A stretch of DNA of 18,614 nt from positions 1 through 18,614 of IMG/VR virus record IMGVR_UViG_2585427737_000006. The stretch is one strand, 5' to 3'. Each line of letters starts with the position of its first letter. Position 1 is the stretch's first letter. Below are positions 5,838 through 17,068 of this stretch, piece by piece. The notes below the pieces were generated by a model that had not been told where the DNA came from, ran no database searches, and worked only from the letters and a program-made list of their open reading frames with translations. The DNA comes from a virus (Duplodnaviria > Heunggongvirae > Uroviricota > Caudoviricetes). Made by a program: the position numbers and the translations under genes.

Positions 5838-6908
5838 TTATTTGATTTCAATTTTGTCCCACTCCCTGCCTCTGTCATCACGATACTGTGATGCCATGGT
5901 GTCCGACTTATGCCCGAGAAGATGTTGAGCAAACTTATCGCTTATCTGCTTCTCATAGAGTCTTGCAGACAAACTGCGCAACTCGTGAAAGGTAGGCGGA
6001 TCCCCTTCGAAGGAAAGACCTGATGCTTTTCGTGCGCGCATAAAATACCTTGATACTGTGCCGGATGAAAGCGGTTCGCGACGAGTAGATGCAATTATGG
6101 TTTCTCCGCCAAGAATCTCTTTGCATTTATCAAGTGTTTCCTTCATTGATATTCCGAGAGCATCAACATGCAATGCTGTTGGGATGGCAATTTTTACGCC
6201 TGTTTTGCTTTGCTCGACATAAAGATATCCATCTACGATATCAGACCACTTCATTTCGCATAAATCACCAACTCGTTGCCCGGTAACAACAGCCAGTTCC
6301 ATTGCAAGTCTGAGCCAACATGGTGATGATTCTGCTGCTTGATAAATTTTCAGGTATTCGTCAGCCGTAAGTCTTGATCTCCTTACCTCTGATTTTGCTG
6401 CGCGAGTGGCAGCGACAGGGTTTGTTGTTATATGGCCTTCAGCTATTGCCTCTCGGAATGCATCGCTCAGTGTTGATCTGATTAACTTGGCTGACGCCGC
6501 CTTGCCCTCGTCTATGTATCCATTGAGCATTGCCGCAATTTCTTTTGTGGTGATGTCTTCAAGTGGAGCATCAGGCAGACCCCTCCTTATTGCTTTAATT
6601 TTGCTCATGTAATTTATGAGTGTCTTCTGCTTGATTCCTCTGCTGGCCAGGATTTTTTCGTAGCGATCAAGCCATGAATGTAACGTAACGGAATTATCAC
6701 TGTTGATTCTCGCTGTCAGAGGCTTGTGTTTGTGTCCTGAAAATAACTCAATGTTGGCCTGTATAGCTTCAGTGATTGCGATTCGCCTGTCTCGGCCTAA
6801 TCCAAACTCTTTACCCGTCCTTGGGTCCCTGTAGCAGTAATATCCATTGTTTCTTATATAAAGGTTAGGGGGTAAATCCCGGCGCTCATGACTTCGCCTT
6901 CTTCCCAT
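5838..6908 (-). CDS. int: Phage integrase, tyrosine recombinase (356 aa), lambda Int
   Basis: 356-aa protein MGRRRSHERRDLPPNLYIRNNGYYCYRDPRTGKEF... matches lambda Int as I recall it, including the C-terminal catalytic region (HELRSL...LLGHKSDTMASQY); adjacent to attL. Confidence 0.95.
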   Translation of the reverse strand: MGRRRSHERRDLPPNLYIRNNGYYCYRDPRTGKEFGLGRDRRIAITEAIQANIELFSGHKHKPLTARINSDNSVTLHSWLDRYEKILASRGIKQKTLINYMSKIKAIRRGLPDAPLEDITTKEIAAMLNGYIDEGKAASAKLIRSTLSDAFREAIAEGHITTNPVAATRAAKSEVRRSRLTADEYLKIYQAAESSPCWLRLAMELAVVTGQRVGDLCEMKWSDIVDGYLYVEQSKTGVKIAIPTALHVDALGISMKETLDKCKEILGGETIIASTRREPLSSGTVSRYFMRARKASGLSFEGDPPTFHELRSLSARLYEKQISDKFAQHLLGHKSDTMASQYRDDRGREWDKIEIK

Positions 6909-7104
6909 TTCTGATCCTCTTCAAAAGGCTACCTGTTACTGGTCGATTTAAGTCAACCTTTACCGCTGATTCGTGGAACAGATATTCTCTTCCATCCTTA
7001 ACCGGAGGAGGGAATATCCTGCATTCGCGCACCCATCGACGAACTGTTTCAAGGCTTCTTGGGCGTCGCTGGCGAGCGTTCCACTCCTGAAGTGTCAAGT
7101 ACAT
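6886..7104 (-). CDS. xis: Excisionase (72 aa), lambda Xis
   Basis: 72-aa MYLTLQEWNARQRRPRSLETVRRWVRECRIFPPPVKDGREYLFHESAVKVDL... matches lambda Xis; overlaps the int start as in lambda. Confidence 0.9.
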   Translation of the reverse strand: MYLTLQEWNARQRRPRSLETVRRWVRECRIFPPPVKDGREYLFHESAVKVDLNRPVTGSLLKRIRNGKKAKS

Positions 7105-7129
7105 CGCAAAGTCTCCGCAATTACACGCA

Positions 7130-7152
7130 AGAAAAAACCGCCATCAGGCGGC
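7130..7152 (-). terminator. Putative rho-independent terminator (minus strand) between the orf55-like ORF and xis
   Basis: Minus-strand hairpin CCGCC-TGAT-GGCGG (plus 7138-7151) followed by TTTTTT (plus A-run 7132-7137). Confidence 0.4.
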
Positions 7153-7311
7153 TTGGTGTTCTTTCAGTTCTTCAATTCGAATATTGGTTACGTCTGCATG
7201 TGCTATCTGCGCCCACAGCATCCAGTGGTCATAGCAGTCGCTGATGTTCTCGGCTTCGATAACTCTGTTGAATGGTTCTCCATTCCATTCACCTGTGACT
7301 CGGAAGTGCAT
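7144..7311 (-). CDS. Small hypothetical protein (55 aa), lambda orf55-like
   Basis: Hand-translated 55-aa ORF, MHFRVTGEWNGEPFNRVIEAENISDCYDHWMLWAQIAHADVTNIRIEELKEHQAA; below the 60-aa cutoff of the ORF track; sits where lambda has a small ORF next to xis. Confidence 0.5.
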   Translation of the reverse strand: MHFRVTGEWNGEPFNRVIEAENISDCYDHWMLWAQIAHADVTNIRIEELKEHQAA

Positions 7312-7553
7312 TTATCATCTCCATAAAACAAAACCCGCCGTAGCGAGTTCAGATAAAAGAAATCCTCGTCAGTGCGAGGATGCTGTTCATTGCTGCTATA
7401 CACTTTTTTGCTCTCAACGTAAGCGGTAGCCCATTCTGTTGGGTTGGTGCAGTTGCTTTTAGGAAATGCTATTTACCCCTTAAATGTCGGCTGAAAGAGC
7501 TAAAATCCATGCAAAAAATTTACGCAATTTTGTGTATTATTGTGCAGTAAGTA

Positions 7554-8156
7554 ATGAGCTATTTTCTGCGCAAAAAATGGATGGTAAATTTGTCCGGGTC
7601 AGGAAAAATTTTATGGGCGCTAAACATGAAAAAAGATTCGTATCCTTATTTGATTTGCATGACAGTTTCAGGGCTGATCTTTATTTTCCTTTTCTTCTGG
7701 TGGCGGGCAGATATCTACAGGGTCACGTTTCTTAATCAGAGTATATCCCACTATTACATTCTGTTTAGCATGGGAATAGCTTTTCTGTTATCTCTGTTTT
7801 GGGTTAAGAAGGGGATAGTAAAACAAAGCGGCTGGAAGAGTCTGTCAGCATACCTTAAGGTTTATGCAGGGATGTGCATATTTGCTGGATTTTTTCTGAT
7901 TATACCCCTTACGACACTAACTTATTTTTTGCCTGGAGAGACATCGTCTTATGTTGCACCGTATCGGTATACTTCCGGTAGTTCAAAAAGTTGTTCTGGA
8001 GCTGAGGTGGATGACCCCGATCTACATGAGAATATTCGCATTTGCTATCCGTATGGCAATTATGAGTACGATAATATTATCTATGTTGAAAAGAAAATTA
8101 ATATATTAGGTGCGGTAGTGACATATGCACAGACCGCGCGTGATGATACTGAATGA
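7554..8156 (+). CDS. Membrane protein of unknown function (3 predicted TM helices plus a Cys/Tyr-rich soluble C-terminal domain); moron-like cargo in the prophage b-region
   Basis: 200-aa ORF (alternative start at 7626, MKKDSYPYL..., 176 aa). Hydrophobic segments LICMTVSGLIFIFLFFWW, YYILFSMGIAFLLSLFWV, VYAGMCIFAGFFLIIPLTTLTYFL. The 7440-8330 region is markedly AT-rich and the gene is on the opposite strand to the surrounding leftward early operon. Confidence 0.6.
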   Translation: MSYFLRKKWMVNLSGSGKILWALNMKKDSYPYLICMTVSGLIFIFLFFWWRADIYRVTFLNQSISHYYILFSMGIAFLLSLFWVKKGIVKQSGWKSLSAYLKVYAGMCIFAGFFLIIPLTTLTYFLPGETSSYVAPYRYTSGSSKSCSGAEVDDPDLHENIRICYPYGNYEYDNIIYVEKKINILGAVVTYAQTARDDTE

Positions 8157-8190
8157 TATAGTATATAGCGGGCAAGTTTTAGTTAATTTA

Positions 8191-8222
8191 TCGAGGTAAT
8201 ATAATTTACCTCGACTCGTTTG
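8191..8222 (+). terminator. Putative terminator hairpin downstream of the membrane-protein gene
   Basis: Perfect 9-bp inverted repeat tcgaggtaa / ttacctcga (8191-8199 and 8206-8214) followed by a T-rich tract ctcgtttgttctgg. Confidence 0.35.
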
Positions 8223-8366
8223 TTCTGGTATTAATATTTCGCTTTACGACCGATTTTTATCTGATGATATCATGCGGTTTTCATATACTGACTTACTGTC
8301 TTTTCTCCGTTAGCGATTTTCTCCTGCTCAGCGATGATTTTATCTTTGGCTTCTAGTTAATTTCGC

Positions 8367-8588
8367 TCACTTCGAACCTCTCTGTTTACTGATAAGCTCC
8401 AGATCTTGCTGGCAACTGGCACAAGTCCGACAACCCTGAACGGCCAGTCGTCTTCGTTCATCTATCGGATCGCCACACTCACAACAATGAGTGGCAGATA
8501 TAGCCTGGTGGTTCAGGCGGCGCATTTTTATTGCTGTGTTGCGCTGTAATTCTTCAATTTCTGATGCTGAATCAATTATGTCTGCCAT
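8367..8588 (-). CDS. TraR/DksA-family C4 zinc-finger protein (73 aa), phage-encoded
   Basis: 73 aa with the CxxC...CxxC motif (CCECGDPIDERRRLAVQGCRTCASC) typical of TraR/DksA zinc fingers; size and position match TraR-like genes of lambdoid prophages. Confidence 0.7.
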   Translation of the reverse strand: MADIIDSASEIEELQRNTAIKMRRLNHQAISATHCCECGDPIDERRRLAVQGCRTCASCQQDLELISKQRGSK

Positions 8589-9170: not shown

Positions 9171-9331
9171 ACAGCTCCCCGTTTATTATTTATCTCCTCA
9201 GCCAGCCGCTGTGCTTTCAGGGGATTTCTGATAACAGAAAGGCCGGGAAATACCCAGCCTCGCTTTGTAACGGAGTAGACGAAAGTGATCGCACCTACCC
9301 GGATATTATCGTGAGGATGCTTCATCGCCAT
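9143..9331 (-). CDS. Small hypothetical protein, lambda orf60a-like (60 aa if started at the second Met, 9325)
   Basis: [65 protein letters not shown] immediately downstream of exo on the minus strand. Confidence 0.5.
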
Positions 9332-10002
9332 TGCTCCCCAAATACAAAACCAATTTCAGCCAGTGCCTCGTCCATTTTTTCGATGAACTCCGGCACCATC
9401 TCGTCAAAACTCGCCATGTACTTTTCATCCCGCTCAACCACGACATAATGCAGGCCTTCACGCTTCATACGCGGGTCATAGTTGGCAAAGTACCAGGCAT
9501 CTTTTCGCGTCACCCACATGCTGTACTGCACCTGGGCCATGTAAGCCGACTTTATGGCCTCGAAACCACCGAGCCGGAACTTCATGAAATCCCGGGAGGT
9601 AAACGGGCATTTCAGCTCAAGGCCATTGCCGTCACTGCATAAACCATCGGGAGAGCAGGCGGTACGCATACTTTCGTCGCGATAGATGATCGGGGATTCA
9701 GTAACATTCACGCCGGAAGTGAATTCAAACAGAGTTCTGGCGTCGTTCTCGTACTGTTTTCCCCATGCCAGCGCCTTAGCATTAACTTCCGGAGCCACAC
9801 CGGTGCAAACCTCAGCCAGCAGGGTGTGGAAGTAGGACATTTTCATGTCAGGCCACTTTTTTCCGGAGCGGGGTTTTGCTATCACATTGTGAACTTCTGA
9901 AGCGGTGATGACGCCGAGCCGTAATTTGTGCCACGCATCATCCCCCTGTTCGACAGCTCTCACGTCGATTCCGGTACGCTGCAGGATAATGTCCGGTGTC
10001 AT
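9322..10002 (-). CDS. exo: Lambda exonuclease (Red-alpha), 226 aa
   Basis: 226-aa [68 protein letters not shown]... matches lambda Exo; overlaps the bet stop as in lambda. Confidence 0.95.
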
Positions 10003-10784
10003 GCAGCCACCTTCTGCTCAGTGGCTTTCTGTTTCAGGAATCCAAGAGCTTTCACTGCTTCGGCCTGTGTCAGTTCTGACGATGCGCGAATGTCGCGGCG
10101 AAATATCTGGGAACAGAGCGGCAATAAGTCGTCATCCCATGTTTTATCCAGGGCAATCAGCAGAGTGTTAATCTCCTGCATGGTTTCATCGTTAACCGGA
10201 GTGATGTCGCGTTCCGGCTGACGTTCTGCAGTGTATGCGGTATTTTCGACAATGCGCTCGGCTTCATCCTTGTCATAGATACCCGCAAATCCGAAGGCGA
10301 GACGGGCACACTGAATCATGGCTTTATGCCGTAACATCCGTTTGGGATGCGACTGCCACGGTCCGGTGATTTCTCTGCCTTCGCGGGTTTTGAATGGTTC
10401 GCGGCGGCATTCATCCATCCACTCGGTAACGCAGATCGGATGATTGCGGTCCTTGCGGTAAATCCGGCATGTGCAGGATTCATTGTCCTGCTCAAAGTCC
10501 ATGCCATCAAACTGCTGGTTTTCATTGATGATACGGGACCAGCCATCAACGCCCACCACCGGAACGATGCCGTTCTGCTTGTCAGGGAAGGCGTAAATTT
10601 CTTTCGTCCACGGATTAAGGCCGTACTGGTTGGCGACGATCAGCAATGCGATGAACTGCGCATCGCTGGCATCACCTTTAAATGCCGTCTGGCGAAGAGT
10701 GGTGATCAGTTCCTGTGGGTCGACAGAATCCATGCCGACGCGTTCAGCCAGCTTCCCAGCCAGCGTTGCGAGTGCTGTACTCAT
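9999..10784 (-). CDS. bet: Red-beta single-strand annealing protein (261 aa)
   Basis: 261-aa [68 protein letters not shown]... matches lambda Bet. Confidence 0.95.
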
Positions 10785-12138: not shown

Positions 12139-12720
12139 ATGAACAACTCATGGTGGCAGGAACTAATGCATTTTTTCCTGCAAGGAATGACACTTAAACA
12201 GTTGATTCATATGCTAATCATCCTGATCATATTGATTATTGTTATGCCTGTAAGCGTAAAAGAATGGATAAACCTGCATAATCCAGAAATCCTTCCTCAT
12301 TACTGGATGTATTACATCCTGTTGTTTTGCGTTAGCTATGTGCTTAACGGCGTTGTTAATTCCGCTTATCACGCTGTGACTGAAAGAATTGAGATATTCG
12401 CTGCTCAGAAGCGCAAATCTAAAGAAGAGAAATACGTGCAAGATTTGTTTGATTCGTTAACTCTTGGAGAAAGAGCGTATTTGGCATTCGCTGTAGCCGC
12501 TAATAACCAGCTAAAGACAGAAAAGGGAAGCCCTGAAGCAATCTCATTGCTCGAAAAAGGGCTTCTTATTCGGGTACCTTCTGCTACTGGATATCCTGAA
12601 ATCGACCGTTTTGTTATCCCGGAACGCTATAGAAATGAGTGCTACATTAGGTTTGCTGGGAAGAAAGACAGTCTTATGGATGAACTTATCGCTCAGGATA
12701 AGCATGGCAAAAACAAGTAA
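12139..12720 (+). CDS. sieB: Superinfection exclusion protein B (abortive-infection membrane protein), 193 aa
   Basis: 193-aa protein with two N-terminal TM segments (LIHMLIILIILIIVMPVSV, HYWMYYILLFCVSYVLNGVV); on the strand opposite the pL operon and just before N, as sieB is in lambda and P22; sequence resembles sieB as I recall it. Confidence 0.7.
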   Translation: MNNSWWQELMHFFLQGMTLKQLIHMLIILIILIIVMPVSVKEWINLHNPEILPHYWMYYILLFCVSYVLNGVVNSAYHAVTERIEIFAAQKRKSKEEKYVQDLFDSLTLGERAYLAFAVAANNQLKTEKGSPEAISLLEKGLLIRVPSATGYPEIDRFVIPERYRNECYIRFAGKKDSLMDELIAQDKHGKNK

Positions 12721-12736
12721 TTAGCAAATTAATTTA

Positions 12737-13009
12737 TCATCTCGCCGTCAGTTGTTTTGATTTCCGGTAGCCTGCCGCGTAAATGGCTACGTTTGGCAGG
12801 CAAATACTTCCACTGCATTCATCTGCCTTCTTGCAGCGAAGGCTTCCGAGTGATGCTGCTTTGTCTGCTCTGACGCAACCAGAGAGCTTTAGCGCAATTT
12901 TTCGCGCCAGTCGCTGTTCTTGCATTGCCTGCTCACGTTGAGCCTGTCTGCGTGCTCTGCGGCGATTTCTGGCGTTATTGTCAGCCAGATATGTAATGAC
13001 TACTGCCAT
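12737..13009 (-). CDS. N: N-type transcription antiterminator with Arg-rich RNA-binding motif (90 aa), P22 gene 24 / phage 21 N type rather than lambda N
   Basis: N-terminal Arg-rich motif NARNRRRARRQAQREQ; C-terminus ...AAGYRKSKQLTAR resembles P22/21-type N; first gene downstream of the inferred pL and nutL. Confidence 0.75.
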   Translation of the reverse strand: MAVVITYLADNNARNRRRARRQAQREQAMQEQRLARKIALKLSGCVRADKAASLGSLRCKKADECSGSICLPNVAIYAAGYRKSKQLTAR

Positions 13010-14346: not shown

Positions 14347-14625
14347 ATGCAACTTACAAGTACTCGCAAGAAAGCGAATGCAATCACAAGCAACATCCTG
14401 AATCGAATTGCTGTACGTGGTCAGCGAAAGGTTGCTGATGCATTAGGGATTAATGAATCGCAAATTTCGCGATGGAAAGACAGCTTTATCCCAAAGATGG
14501 CCATGCTTCTGGCTGTGCTGGAGTGGGGTGTTGAAGACGAGGAATTAGCAAAGCTAGCAAAGAAAGTAGCCATGGTGCTGACAAAAGAAAAGCCTCAAGA
14601 CTGCTGCAACAGTTTTGAGGCCTGA
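14347..14625 (+). CDS. c1: CII-family transcriptional activator (P22 c1 type, 92 aa)
   Basis: MQLTSTRKKANAITSNILNRIAVRGQRKVADALGINESQISRWKDSFIPKMAMLLAVLEWG...; start placed at the internal ATG at 14347 (preceded by aaggaaatacttacat); HTH present; position after cro and nutR. Confidence 0.8.
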   Translation: MQLTSTRKKANAITSNILNRIAVRGQRKVADALGINESQISRWKDSFIPKMAMLLAVLEWGVEDEELAKLAKKVAMVLTKEKPQDCCNSFEA

Positions 14626-16573: not shown

Positions 16574-17068
16574 ATGAGAAAATTTATTTTAGCCTTTGTT
16601 ATAAGTGCCTCGTTTACAGCAAATGCTGGTGTAGAGAAGTTAGGGCCGTGGATAACAAAGTCTGAGATAAATAAAATGACTGACCAGACTGACTTTGTGG
16701 CCCTTAATTTATCACCAGATTCATATAACAAAGCAGGTACTGATCGTGCAACTTCACTGGTGTTGCGTTGTAGTGATAACAAAACAGATGCCTATTTATC
16801 ATTCAATGATTATATGGGTTCGGACAACCCAAGAATTACAGTGCGGTTAGATGGCGGAAAGCCGGTCAAGAGTGTTTGGGGAGGTGGGGAAGGCGGTGAT
16901 TCTGCATTTGCTCCACAACCAATACAATTTATAAAGACCTTGGCTAAGCATAAAAAAGCTATTTTTGGGTTTGAACCTTATGGATCAACTATGCAAGTAG
17001 TTGAGTTTGACTTGTCTGAGATTGATAAGGTTGTGGAAAAAATTTCACAGTCTTGCAATTGGAAATGA
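16574..17068 (+). CDS. Secreted/periplasmic protein of unknown function (164 aa, cleavable signal peptide); moron-like cargo
   Basis: Strong SD aaggag 7 nt upstream of the ATG; N-terminus MRKFILAFVISASFTANA is a typical Sec signal peptide with an AxA cleavage site; AT-rich codon usage unlike the flanking lambda genes; followed by a strong intrinsic terminator. Confidence 0.65.
   Translation: MRKFILAFVISASFTANAGVEKLGPWITKSEINKMTDQTDFVALNLSPDSYNKAGTDRATSLVLRCSDNKTDAYLSFNDYMGSDNPRITVRLDGGKPVKSVWGGGEGGDSAFAPQPIQFIKTLAKHKKAIFGFEPYGSTMQVVEFDLSEIDKVVEKISQSCNWK

What the first reader, a model, noticed from the sequence alone, without database searches (positions are those of the whole stretch)
7440..8330. 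AT-rich opposite-strand cargo gene in the prophage b-region encoding a 3-TM membrane protein of unknown function
Between orf55/xis and the TraR-like gene, where lambda carries ea8.5/ea22, this prophage has an island of much lower GC content than its surroundings. It holds one gene on the opposite strand to the leftward early operon, with its own palindromic terminator candidate. The product (176-200 aa) has three hydrophobic helices and a Cys/Tyr-rich C-terminal domain (CSGAEVDDPDLHENIRICYPYGNYEYDN) that I cannot assign to any family. Single membrane-protein morons at this position in lambdoid prophages are often superinfection-exclusion, abortive-infection or host-modifying factors, so this is my best candidate for an undescribed function here.
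Basis: partly seen in the sequence, partly recalled or inferred. Interest (0 to 1): 0.7.

Follow-up and report, generated by a model that had tools for sequence, protein, structure and literature searches.

The report
Uncharacterised prophage membrane-protein moron (phage 434)
This is a real, self-contained cargo gene, found in classical phage 434 and about 18% of complete E. coli genomes, that encodes an inner-membrane protein of unknown function with a small periplasmic beta-barrel; it is most likely a prophage-expressed envelope factor, possibly a block to superinfecting phages, and nobody has tested it.

Summary
A 973-bp AT-rich island (7382-8354) replaces lambda's ea8.5 and ea22 and carries one + strand gene, opposite to the pL operon. 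The conserved start is ATG 7626 (176 aa); the 200-aa RefSeq model is not conserved. The protein has three TM helices (predicted N-in, C-out) and a 70-aa five-strand periplasmic beta-barrel. Its two cysteines are the only invariant residues in the family.

It has no Pfam, NCBIfam or PADLOC match, no solved-structure relative, and no homology to P22 SieA. The only hit is PHROG 1416 (unknown function).

The gene is nearly identical in phages 434, mEp332 and 2B8, and is O157:H7 Sakai ECs_0804. It occurs in 915 of 5426 complete E. coli genomes. dN/dS is 0.06-0.16, and it stays intact in decayed prophages.

A 758-bp module (conserved upstream region, CDS, hairpin) recurs in the old/tin defence hotspot of P2-like prophages. 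Native-GC syntenic orthologues sit in Enterobacter chromosomes.

Best guess, at about 0.35: a prophage-expressed entry block (superinfection exclusion) acting through a conserved envelope partner. A non-phage envelope or immunity role is nearly as likely. The function is undescribed but the kind of element is familiar, so interest is moderate.

The parts
7382..8354 (.). AT-rich island that replaces lambda ea8.5 and ea22 between orf55 and the TraR-like gene
   Evidence: blastn against lambda: homology ends at 7381 and resumes at 8355. GC is 0.36-0.41 against 0.44-0.54 in the flanks.
7489..8246 (+). Mobile module (moron unit) shared with copies in P2-like prophages: upstream region, CDS and hairpin
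   Evidence: blastn: 7489-8246 aligns at 76% to the E. coli P2-like copy L028, and 7530-8124 aligns at 71% to the Salmonella P2-like copy L016. Outside these ranges nothing aligns.
7626..8156 (+). CDS, 176 aa plus stop: inner-membrane protein with three TM helices and a C-terminal periplasmic beta-barrel (phage 434 CPT_434_36; O157 Sakai ECs_0804; RefSeq WP_000120065/WP_000711110 family)
   Evidence: All homologues start at this Met. dN/dS is 0.06-0.16. AF2 pLDDT is 87. TM segments are from hydropathy.
7554..7625 (+). N-terminal extension of the 200-aa RefSeq model; probably untranslated leader or promoter DNA
   Evidence: In the EC9 copy this frame contains TAG. In the Salmonella copies it reads ATG TAG. 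The nucleotides are conserved but the frame is not.
7520..7546 (+). Three direct repeats at a 10-bp period (TTACGCA / TTGTGTA / TTGTGCA; consensus TTGTGCA). Candidate regulator binding site. It includes the TTGT-N6-TTGT that the phage 434 record annotates as a CII site.
   Evidence: Conserved in the lambdoid copy, the E. coli P2 copy and two Salmonella P2 copies. In Salmonella it reads ATTGTGCAAAATTGTGCAGTATTGTGCAG. The 434 annotation is. The CII pattern alone is not enriched in the window: 5 found, 4.6 expected.
7562..7577 (+). Conserved imperfect palindrome TTTTCTGCGCAAAAAA at the -35 position of the candidate promoter
   Evidence: Nearly invariant block in alignments A3 and A5. Its function is inferred only.
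7582..7590 (+). Candidate extended -10 promoter element TGgTAAATT. The predicted start of transcription is near 7597, about 29 nt before the ATG.
   Evidence: Conserved as TGnTAA(A/T)TT in 7 phage-borne copies, down to those at 60% protein identity. The simple sigma-70 scan did not call it. Not verified experimentally.
8191..8214 (+). Terminator-like hairpin 35 nt after the stop codon
   Evidence: Scan hit with 9 pairs. -12.9 kcal/mol, z = -2.78. Retained with a G-U change in EC9 and weakly in the E. coli P2 copy. The U-tract is poor.

Best explanation
What it is (well supported). This is a 758-bp moron made of a conserved upstream control region, one CDS and a hairpin. It is inserted antisense in the pL operon of a 434-type lambdoid prophage. 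It encodes a 176-aa inner-membrane protein. The predicted topology is: N-terminus in the cytoplasm, three TM helices, a lysine-rich cytoplasmic loop between TM2 and TM3, and a C-terminal OB-like five-strand beta-barrel of about 70 aa in the periplasm. The barrel is probably stabilised by a disulfide between the two invariant cysteines (C123 and C140).

How it most likely works (inferred). It is transcribed from its own promoter in the repressed prophage. The periplasmic barrel, held at the outer face of the inner membrane, binds a conserved envelope component. That component would be either a host periplasmic or inner-membrane protein that phages need for genome entry, or the incoming ejection or tape-measure machinery itself. 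The result is a block to DNA translocation by superinfecting phages. This is superinfection exclusion in the manner of P22 SieA, T4 Imm or HK97 gp15, without homology to any of them. The benefit to the host would explain why the gene is kept after the rest of the prophage decays.
For: Real, selected gene. dN/dS is 0.06-0.16 across lambdoid, P2-borne and chromosomal copies. The periplasmic domain is the more constrained part, at 0.05-0.2.

Architecture. Hydropathy gives three TM segments, and five Lys lie in the TM2-TM3 loop. AF2 pLDDT is 87 for the whole protein and 87 for the C-domain. Only the two Cys are invariant among 30 diverse members.

Moron character. There are sharp homology boundaries against lambda, low GC, a hairpin, and an upstream region of about 130 nt conserved across phage types, with a conserved extended -10.

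Guilt by location. Homologues sit in the Q-gpA (old/tin) hotspot of P2-like prophages of E. coli, Salmonella and Klebsiella. Sometimes they are alone and sometimes beside other cargo. That hotspot is experimentally rich in antiviral systems. In the related P4 satellite hotspot, 6 of 8 randomly chosen loci holding only genes of unknown function gave protection (PMC9122126; PMC13586616).

Retention in decayed prophages. It is intact in O157:H7 Sp3, where int is frameshifted and bet truncated. It is also intact in a dsdC/torI remnant flanked by pseudogenes in two unrelated strains, which carry the identical protein.

Prevalence. It is in 915 of 5426 complete E. coli genomes, and a second allele is in about 77 more.

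Precedents. sieB, a known prophage-expressed exclusion gene, also sits on the + strand inside the pL operon of this same prophage. [quoted passage not shown]
Against: There is no experimental or transcript evidence here for expression in lysogens or for any phage phenotype.

The protein has no homology to SieA (hhalign probability 0.6%), to Pfam SieB, Imm or Rex families, or to any PADLOC model.

The Enterobacter cloacae complex carries a syntenic, native-GC chromosomal orthologue. Other copies lie at ordinary chromosomal sites. This is unusual for an exclusion gene and suggests a cellular envelope function.

The periplasmic domain shows purifying rather than diversifying selection. That argues against direct recognition of fast-evolving phage proteins, although it is compatible with binding a conserved host factor.

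The family is carried by both siphoviruses (lambdoid) and myoviruses (P2-like), so it is not tied to one injection machinery.

Only three isolated phages carry it.
Confidence: 0.35

Rival explanations
1. An envelope fitness or lysogenic-conversion factor unrelated to phages. The family would be an enterobacterial inner-membrane protein whose periplasmic barrel binds an envelope component. It could, for example, act as an orphan immunity protein against a periplasm- or membrane-acting bacteriocin or T6SS effector, or as a stress or antimicrobial-tolerance factor. Phages carry it because it helps the lysogen.
For: Syntenic, native-GC orthologues occur in at least 7 Enterobacter species (GGDEF_EAL-[LysR]-gene-HAMP_GGDEF-AI-2E). 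Other chromosomal sites are next to a LysR gene in Klebsiella and after ptsG. The periplasmic domain is under strong purifying selection. The upstream control region is conserved when the gene moves between lambdoid and P2-like phages, which suggests regulation by a host factor rather than a phage factor. From my own knowledge, small polytopic inner-membrane proteins are the usual form of immunity to pore-forming or periplasm-acting bacteriocins.
Against: No toxin, bacteriocin or T6SS gene lies next to it in any of the loci examined. It matches no Pfam family of any kind, colicin or microcin immunity families included. Its recurrent placement in the P2 old/tin hotspot favours an anti-phage role.
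Confidence: 0.3
2. An abortive-infection effector or sensor. The membrane protein would stay inert until phage infection and then depolarise or permeabilise the inner membrane, killing the cell before progeny are made (RexB- or AbiZ-like logic) as a single-gene system.
For: The hotspot location applies as above. In known systems, TM proteins at such loci are commonly thought to be suicide effectors (PMC9122126). The three TM helices could oligomerise.
Against: There is no partner sensor gene, and the gene occurs alone in several loci (L017, L023). The best-conserved part is periplasmic rather than cytoplasmic, where infection would be sensed. A constitutively carried pore-former would be risky in chromosomal core-like loci. 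No PADLOC match.
Confidence: 0.1
3. A phage life-cycle accessory. The gene would be activated by CII during establishment of lysogeny (as the phage 434 GenBank annotation implies), or used in lytic growth, for instance to modulate lysis timing or membrane physiology for the phage's own benefit.
For: The TTGT-N6-TTGT motif at 7530-7543 is annotated as a CII site in OL657226. The repeats are conserved.
Against: The CII pattern occurs at chance frequency in the window, 5 found against 4.6 expected. It uses TTGT, whereas the window matches at the positions annotated or expected for the CII promoters pI and pRE (7117-7130 and 14380-14393) use TTGC. From my own knowledge, P2-like phages have no CII, yet the same repeats are conserved in their copies. 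The gene is kept intact in prophage remnants that cannot grow and in non-phage chromosomal loci. It lies far from the lysis cassette.
Confidence: 0.08
4. A non-functional ORF or annotation artefact in AT-rich filler DNA.
For: None beyond the lack of any annotation. The 200-aa start is indeed an artefact.
Against: dN/dS is 0.06-0.16 over highly diverged copies. There are 62 family clusters with the same architecture. The AF2 model is confident. 909 of the 915 matching copies in complete E. coli genomes cover at least 80% of the probe.
Confidence: 0.02

Closest known systems
P22 SieA (superinfection exclusion A)
   Same: A prophage-borne single gene with its own promoter. The inner-membrane protein is about 160-176 aa with three predicted TM helices. 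It is expected to act at the DNA-entry step (PMC10883804).
   Different: No sequence relationship (hhalign probability 0.6%). SieA's conserved motif FxRYPxEAxxFNK is cytoplasmic and is absent here. Here the conserved soluble domain is a periplasmic beta-barrel with a Cys pair. SieA is confined to one locus of P22-like phages, whereas this family moves between lambdoid phages, P2-like phages and chromosomes.
Lambda-type morons expressed from the prophage (sieB, bor, lom; HK97 gp15)
   Same: An independent transcription unit inserted between conserved phage genes, with deviant base composition and a downstream hairpin. sieB in this very window is likewise on the + strand inside the pL operon.
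   Different: No homology to SieB, Bor, Lom or Cor (Pfam). HK97 gp15 is only 62 aa. The function here is untested.
Cargo of the P2 old/tin defence hotspot
   Same: Homologues occupy exactly this hotspot, between the portal gene Q and the replication gene A, in E. coli, Salmonella and Klebsiella P2-like prophages.
   Different: It matches none of the catalogued systems (PADLOC). It is a small membrane protein with no enzymatic or NTPase domain. No anti-phage test of it was found in the literature searched.
Membrane-anchored small OB-like beta-barrel proteins (DUF1093, YhhM/DUF2500, short NfeD such as YuaF)
PHROG 1416
   Same: Residues 113-200 of the 200-aa model (TM3 plus barrel) match the 90-position profile at E = 7e-51.
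   Different: The PHROG covers only the C-terminal half, being built from short or truncated gene calls such as the 81-112-aa entries seen. It carries no functional annotation.

Membership tests
Moron (independent cargo transcription unit in a phage genome, sensu Hendrix) | Inserted between genes that are adjacent or differently filled in related phages, with sharp homology boundaries | tested here: met
   Lambda homology stops at 7381 and resumes at 8355. Lambda has ea8.5 and ea22 there.
Moron (independent cargo transcription unit in a phage genome, sensu Hendrix) | Base composition different from the surrounding phage DNA | tested here: met
   Gene GC is 0.392 against 0.477 for the window.
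Moron (independent cargo transcription unit in a phage genome, sensu Hendrix) | Own promoter and own terminator | tested here: inconclusive
   Hairpin 8191-8214. Conserved extended -10 TGgTAAATT at 7582-7590 and a conserved upstream region. No transcript data, and the simple sigma-70 scan did not call a promoter.
Moron (independent cargo transcription unit in a phage genome, sensu Hendrix) | Expressed from the repressed prophage | not testable with these tools
P22 SieA superinfection-exclusion family | Sequence homology, including the FxRYPxEAxxFNK motif | tested here: not met
   hhalign of the family profile against P22 SieA gives probability 0.6%. The motif is absent from the sequence.
P22 SieA superinfection-exclusion family | Inner-membrane protein with three TM helices, about 160 aa | tested here: met
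   Prediction only: hydropathy and AF2.
P22 SieA superinfection-exclusion family | Blocks DNA injection of superinfecting phage | not testable with these tools
   Requires plating and K+ efflux or injection assays.
Known anti-phage defence proteins (PADLOC-DB v2.0.0) | HMM match to any catalogued defence protein | tested here: not met
   0 families at E <= 10.
Pfam/NCBIfam exclusion, immunity or membrane families (SieB, Imm, RexB, colicin immunity, NfeD, DUF1093, DUF2500) | HMM match above or near the curated threshold | tested here: not met
   The only Pfam hit is DUF6057 at E = 0.24, 10.7 bits against a cut-off of 29.8. NCBIfam gave none.
PHROG 1416 (unknown function) | HMM match | tested here: met
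   E = 7e-51 over residues 113-200 of the 200-aa model.
OB-fold / small beta-barrel domain | Five-strand closed barrel resembling solved OB or SH3-like barrels | tested here: inconclusive

The most novel reading that the evidence does not exclude
An unrecognised single-gene envelope system. An enterobacterial inner-membrane protein family, vertically inherited in Enterobacter, has been captured together with its own host-regulated promoter (three 10-bp-phased TTGTGCA repeats plus an extended -10). It shuttles between lambdoid and P2-like prophage hotspots. There its periplasmic disulfide-bonded barrel sequesters a conserved host factor needed for phage genome entry. This would give broad exclusion in about 18% of complete E. 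coli genomes, including phage 434 lysogens and O157:H7.
Probability: 0.25. Interest if true: 0.6.

Novelty: new member of a known kind. Interest (0 to 1): 0.42.

Why it matters
Phage 434 is a textbook phage, and this gene sits in roughly one complete E. coli genome in six, including O157:H7, O104:H4 and O145:H28 strains. Even so, it has no name, no family and no tested function.

It behaves like a domesticated gene. It is under purifying selection, it stays intact in dead prophages, and it moves as a compact module between two unrelated phage lineages and into a recognised defence hotspot.

If it is an exclusion or defence factor, it would add a new membrane-acting, single-gene family to the prophage defence repertoire, and it would affect the host range of therapeutic and typing phages on E. 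coli and Salmonella. If instead it is an envelope or immunity factor, it would be a new lysogenic-conversion function.

Either answer can be reached with simple cloning and plating experiments. The corrected start codon and the module boundaries given here make those experiments straightforward to design.

Tried and rejected
- Sequence families. Pfam, NCBIfam and PADLOC scans gave nothing usable.
- Solved structures by sequence. A profile search of PDB sequences returned only noise, E >= 0.36.
- Exhaustive HMM search of 1.84 billion representatives. Only 62 hits were found. The two multi-repeat hits (P0124, a 3074-aa repeat protein, and P0131, low-complexity) are spurious matches to the Cys-containing motif.
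- SieA homology was rejected. HK97 gp15 was rejected on size, 62 aa.
- Lipoprotein or cleavable signal peptide. Rejected from the sequence itself: Ile precedes C11, so there is no lipobox; C11 is not conserved; and there is no AXA site.
- CII-dependent promoter. This was not supported as a general explanation.
- Rfam. No RNA family in 7200-8450.
- Upstream 56-aa ORF (7380-7550), annotated 'putative membrane protein' in phage 434. It has no PHROG, and its sequence is not conserved outside the lambdoid copies. It was rejected as part of the unit.
- Neighbouring small ORFs in the Salmonella P2 hotspots (81/123 aa and 119 aa). They are not consistently present, being absent in L017 and L023, so they are not partners.
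- Literature. Searches for mEp332, WP_000120065, ECs0804 and neighbouring tags, and for lambdoid hotspot defence found no functional data.
- EDL933 locus tag. I could not verify it because the record is not in the collection.
- The search for related loci failed with the most divergent alignment and was rerun with A2.
Full report
**1. What is in the sequence**

The window is a lambdoid prophage integrated next to ybhC, the lambda att site. On the - strand it carries:
- int (5838-6908)
- xis (6886-7104)
- orf55 (7144-7311)
- a TraR/DksA-like gene (8367-8588)
- exo (9322-10002)
- bet (9999-10784)

Further right are sieB, N, a cI-type repressor, O and P.

Between orf55 and the TraR-like gene lies one + strand ORF, 7554-8156. 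GC falls to 0.36-0.41 across 7400-8300, against 0.44-0.54 on either side. The gene is 0.392 GC and the window as a whole 0.477.

blastn against lambda shows that homology ends at 7381 and resumes at 8355. The 973-bp island therefore replaces lambda's ea8.5 and ea22.

A hairpin at 8191-8214 follows the stop codon. It has a 9-bp stem, -12.9 kcal/mol and z = -2.8, but its U-tract is weak.

**2. The true gene model**

RefSeq calls a 200-aa protein from ATG 7554. The phage 434 record aa from a TTG.

All homologues outside this allele start at the Met encoded by ATG 7626, with the sequence MKK.SYP. The DNA upstream of 7626 is conserved in other copies, but the frame is not. The EC9 copy reads ATG...AAA TAG, and the Salmonella copies read ATG TAG.

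The product is therefore 176 aa, encoded by 7626-8156. The 7554-7625 stretch is leader or promoter DNA.

**3. The protein**

Hydropathy gives three TM segments, at residues 7-26, 41-60 and 80-102. The TM2-TM3 loop holds five lysines and the N-terminus holds two. The positive-inside rule (established knowledge) therefore predicts N-in and C-out.

AlphaFold2 with a 21-sequence alignment gives pLDDT 87 and pTM 0.72. It models helices 5-29, 38-61 and 70-101, followed by five strands. The C-terminal 78 residues modelled alone give pLDDT 87 with the same five strands.

Across 30 members, down to 18% identity, the only invariant residues are the two cysteines, C123 and C140. They flank the second and third strands. 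Invariant cysteines in a periplasmic domain suggest a structural disulfide, but that is inference.

No lipobox or cleavable signal peptide is evident in the sequence.

**4. Family and fold searches**

| Search | Result |
|---|---|
| Pfam | only DUF6057, E = 0.24, far below threshold |
| NCBIfam | none |
| PADLOC | none |
| PHROGs | phrog_1416 (unknown function, 90 positions) matches TM3 plus barrel, E = 7e-51 |
| PDB sequences, profile | nothing |
| Foldseek against viral structures | nothing |

The PHROG profile covers only the C-terminal half, probably because many gene calls are short; 81-112-aa entries were seen. The C-domain result means a generic small beta-barrel with no specific relative.

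A profile search of 1.84 billion cluster representatives found just 62 hits. Apart from two spurious repeat proteins, all were full-length members of about 170 aa or fragments. Every named source organism is a member of the Enterobacteriaceae. This is a small, taxonomically narrow family.

**5. Where the gene occurs**

- **Isolated phages.** The island is 98.8-99.9% identical in phages 434, 2B8 and mEp332. No other isolated phage in 50,697 records has it. The old 434 int-xis record (M60848) already showed its first codons as 'ORF-22+'.
- **E. coli genomes.** It is in 915 of 5426 complete genomes, and 909 of these cover at least 80% of the probe. Carriers include O157:H7, O104:H4 and O145:H28. 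In Sakai it is ECs_0804 in prophage Sp3.
- **Integration sites.** Carriers sit at ybhC, at torS, and in a remnant at dsdC/torI.
- **Second allele.** An allele 78% identical at the protein level is in about 77 further genomes. In 15 more genomes that allele matches over only part of the gene.
- **P2-like prophages.** That allele, and more distant ones at 55-71%, lie between the portal gene Q and the replication gene A. This holds in E. coli, Salmonella and Klebsiella. In E. coli the copy sits beside an ead/Ea22-like pseudogene; related P2-like prophages carry that gene intact at the same spot without the membrane-protein gene. So an insertion at that site is likely, and whether it points to exchange with lambdoid phages is open.
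- **Shared DNA.** What the lambdoid and P2 copies share is 7489-8246 (76% to the E. coli copy) or 7530-8124 (71% to the Salmonella copy). That is exactly the upstream region, the CDS and the hairpin.
- **Enterobacter cloacae complex.** The family member is chromosomal and syntenic across at least 7 species, in the order GGDEF_EAL, a variable LysR gene, the family gene, HAMP-GGDEF, AI-2E transporter and amino-acid permease. Its GC is native there, 0.50-0.54 against 0.52-0.55 for the locus.
- **Other contexts.** Copies also lie beside a LysR gene in Klebsiella and after ptsG in an enterobacterial chromosome. A distant member sits immediately downstream of an integrase on a ParM/ArdC/CbtA element.

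**6. Selection**

Pairwise Nei-Gojobori dN/dS is 0.06-0.16 between phage-borne copies. Split by region:

| Region | dN/dS |
|---|---|
| Periplasmic domain | 0.05-0.2 |
| TM part | 0.1-0.46 |
| Enterobacter chromosomal copies (both regions) | 0.17-0.46 |

Nothing suggests diversifying selection.

The gene is intact in O157:H7 Sp3, where int is frameshifted, bet is truncated and the immunity region is gone. It is also intact in the dsdC/torI remnant, surrounded by an IS4 pseudogene, an exo pseudogene and a tail-fibre fragment. There the protein is identical in a human isolate from China and a fox isolate from Norway. This is the pattern of a gene that benefits the host.

**7. Regulation (inferred)**

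About 130 nt upstream of the ATG are conserved between the lambdoid copies and the P2-borne copies whose proteins are at least 71% identical. The conserved elements are:
- three direct repeats at a 10-bp period (7520-7546; consensus TTGTGCA)
- an imperfect palindrome, TTTTCTGCGCAAAAAA (7562-7577)
- TGgTAAATT (7582-7590), which fits an extended -10 and persists in copies at 60% protein identity

The phage 434 record labels TTGT-N6-TTGT (7530-7543) as a CII site. That pattern occurs at chance frequency in the window, 5 found against 4.6 expected. The repeats are also conserved in P2-like phages, which from my own knowledge have no CII. A host regulator is therefore more likely.

**8. Interpretation**

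*Shown.* This is a real, selected, mobile single-gene module. It encodes a three-TM protein with a conserved C-terminal beta-barrel. It is unrelated to any characterised family, widespread in E. coli prophages, recurrent in the P2 old/tin hotspot, and also a resident chromosomal gene in Enterobacter.

*Inferred.* The topology is N-in, C-out. The two cysteines form a disulfide. The gene has its own promoter and is expressed from the prophage.

*Most likely function, about 0.35.* It blocks entry of superinfecting phage genomes at the inner membrane or periplasm, through binding of a conserved envelope partner. The arguments are:
- Its location in hotspots where antiviral cargo has been demonstrated experimentally. 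In the related P4 hotspot, 6 of 8 loci holding only unknown genes gave protection (PMC9122126, PMC13586616).
- Its retention in dead prophages.
- The architectural precedents of sieB in this same prophage and of P22 SieA, a three-TM, 162-164-aa inner-membrane protein that blocks injection (PMC10883804).

It is not a SieA homologue.

*Nearly as likely, about 0.3.* It has a non-phage envelope role, such as orphan immunity or stress tolerance. The Enterobacter synteny, the purifying selection on the periplasmic domain and the phage-independent control region favour this.

*Less likely.* Abortive infection (0.1), a phage life-cycle role (0.08) and a non-gene (0.02).

**9. Novelty and verdict**

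The sequence has long been in the databases as a hypothetical or putative membrane protein, and the type of element, a prophage moron encoding a small membrane protein, is familiar. What is new here is:
- the corrected gene model
- the module boundaries
- the fold description
- the distribution (lambdoid prophages, the P2 hotspot and the Enterobacter chromosome)
- the evidence of selection
- the conserved control region

I rate it a new member of a known kind. Interest is moderate, because the function is open, the gene is very common, it sits in a classical phage, and it can be tested cheaply.

Noticed in passing
window 12139-12720 (+): A sieB gene (Pfam SieB, E = 1e-25) lies on the + strand inside the leftward pL operon, next to N (12737-13009, -). 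It is a second opposite-strand, prophage-expressed exclusion gene in the same prophage.
   Followed up: partly
window 16574-17068 (+): A 164-aa ORF in the nin region downstream of P matches Pfam VasI (a type VI secretion accessory protein) at E = 5e-6, 26.7 bits against a cut-off of 26.5. That is an odd family to find in a lambdoid nin region.
   Followed up: no
window 7380-7550 (+): A 56-aa ORF annotated 'putative membrane protein' (CPT_434_35) in phage 434 has no PHROG. Its sequence is not conserved outside the lambdoid copies, and it overlaps the tL4 terminator region of M60848. It is probably not a gene.
   Followed up: partly
window 7520-7590 (+): Upstream of the gene are three 10-bp-phased TTGTGCA-like direct repeats, a TTTTCTGCGCAAAAAA palindrome and an extended -10. 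All are conserved between the lambdoid and P2-like copies. The regulator that would bind them is unknown.
   Followed up: partly
window 7331-7381 (- strand): Two terminator-like hairpins on the - strand lie just downstream of the island in the pL direction. They coincide with the 't-L4' terminator annotated in the old phage 434 record M60848.
   Followed up: no
L016 4284-4888; L009 5106-5836 (Salmonella P2-like prophages): Two small same-strand ORFs (81 or 123 aa, and 119 aa) often precede the homologue in the P2 hotspot. The 119-aa one hits PHROGs annotated phosphoheptose isomerase and polynucleotide kinase weakly (E about 1e-9). They are absent in other carriers, so they are probably separate cargo.
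   Followed up: partly
L024-L026 1281-4623 (Klebsiella P2-like prophage): A 790-aa AAA_16 protein and a 279-aa protein share the old/tin hotspot with the homologue. They look like an uncatalogued candidate defence pair.
   Followed up: no
L028 5935-6305 and L029 4262-4852 (E. coli P2-like prophages): An ead/Ea22-like gene, typical of the lambdoid exo-xis region, occupies the P2 hotspot. It is intact in O26:H11. It is a pseudogene (frameshifted, C-terminus missing) where the membrane-protein gene is present, so the gene probably inserted at that site.
   Followed up: partly
L045 3112-4541 (metagenome contig): The most distant family member (18% identity) lies 15 nt downstream of a tyrosine integrase on an element carrying ParM/StbA, ArdC, a CbtA toxin and a phospholipase-like gene. 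The family therefore also travels on plasmid- or ICE-like elements.
   Followed up: no
L031 (contig JARKOR010000073.1): A 3.5-kb contig binned as 'Candidatus Nanosynbacter' carries a copy 99% identical to the E. coli gene. This is almost certainly a binning contaminant from E. coli.
   Followed up: no
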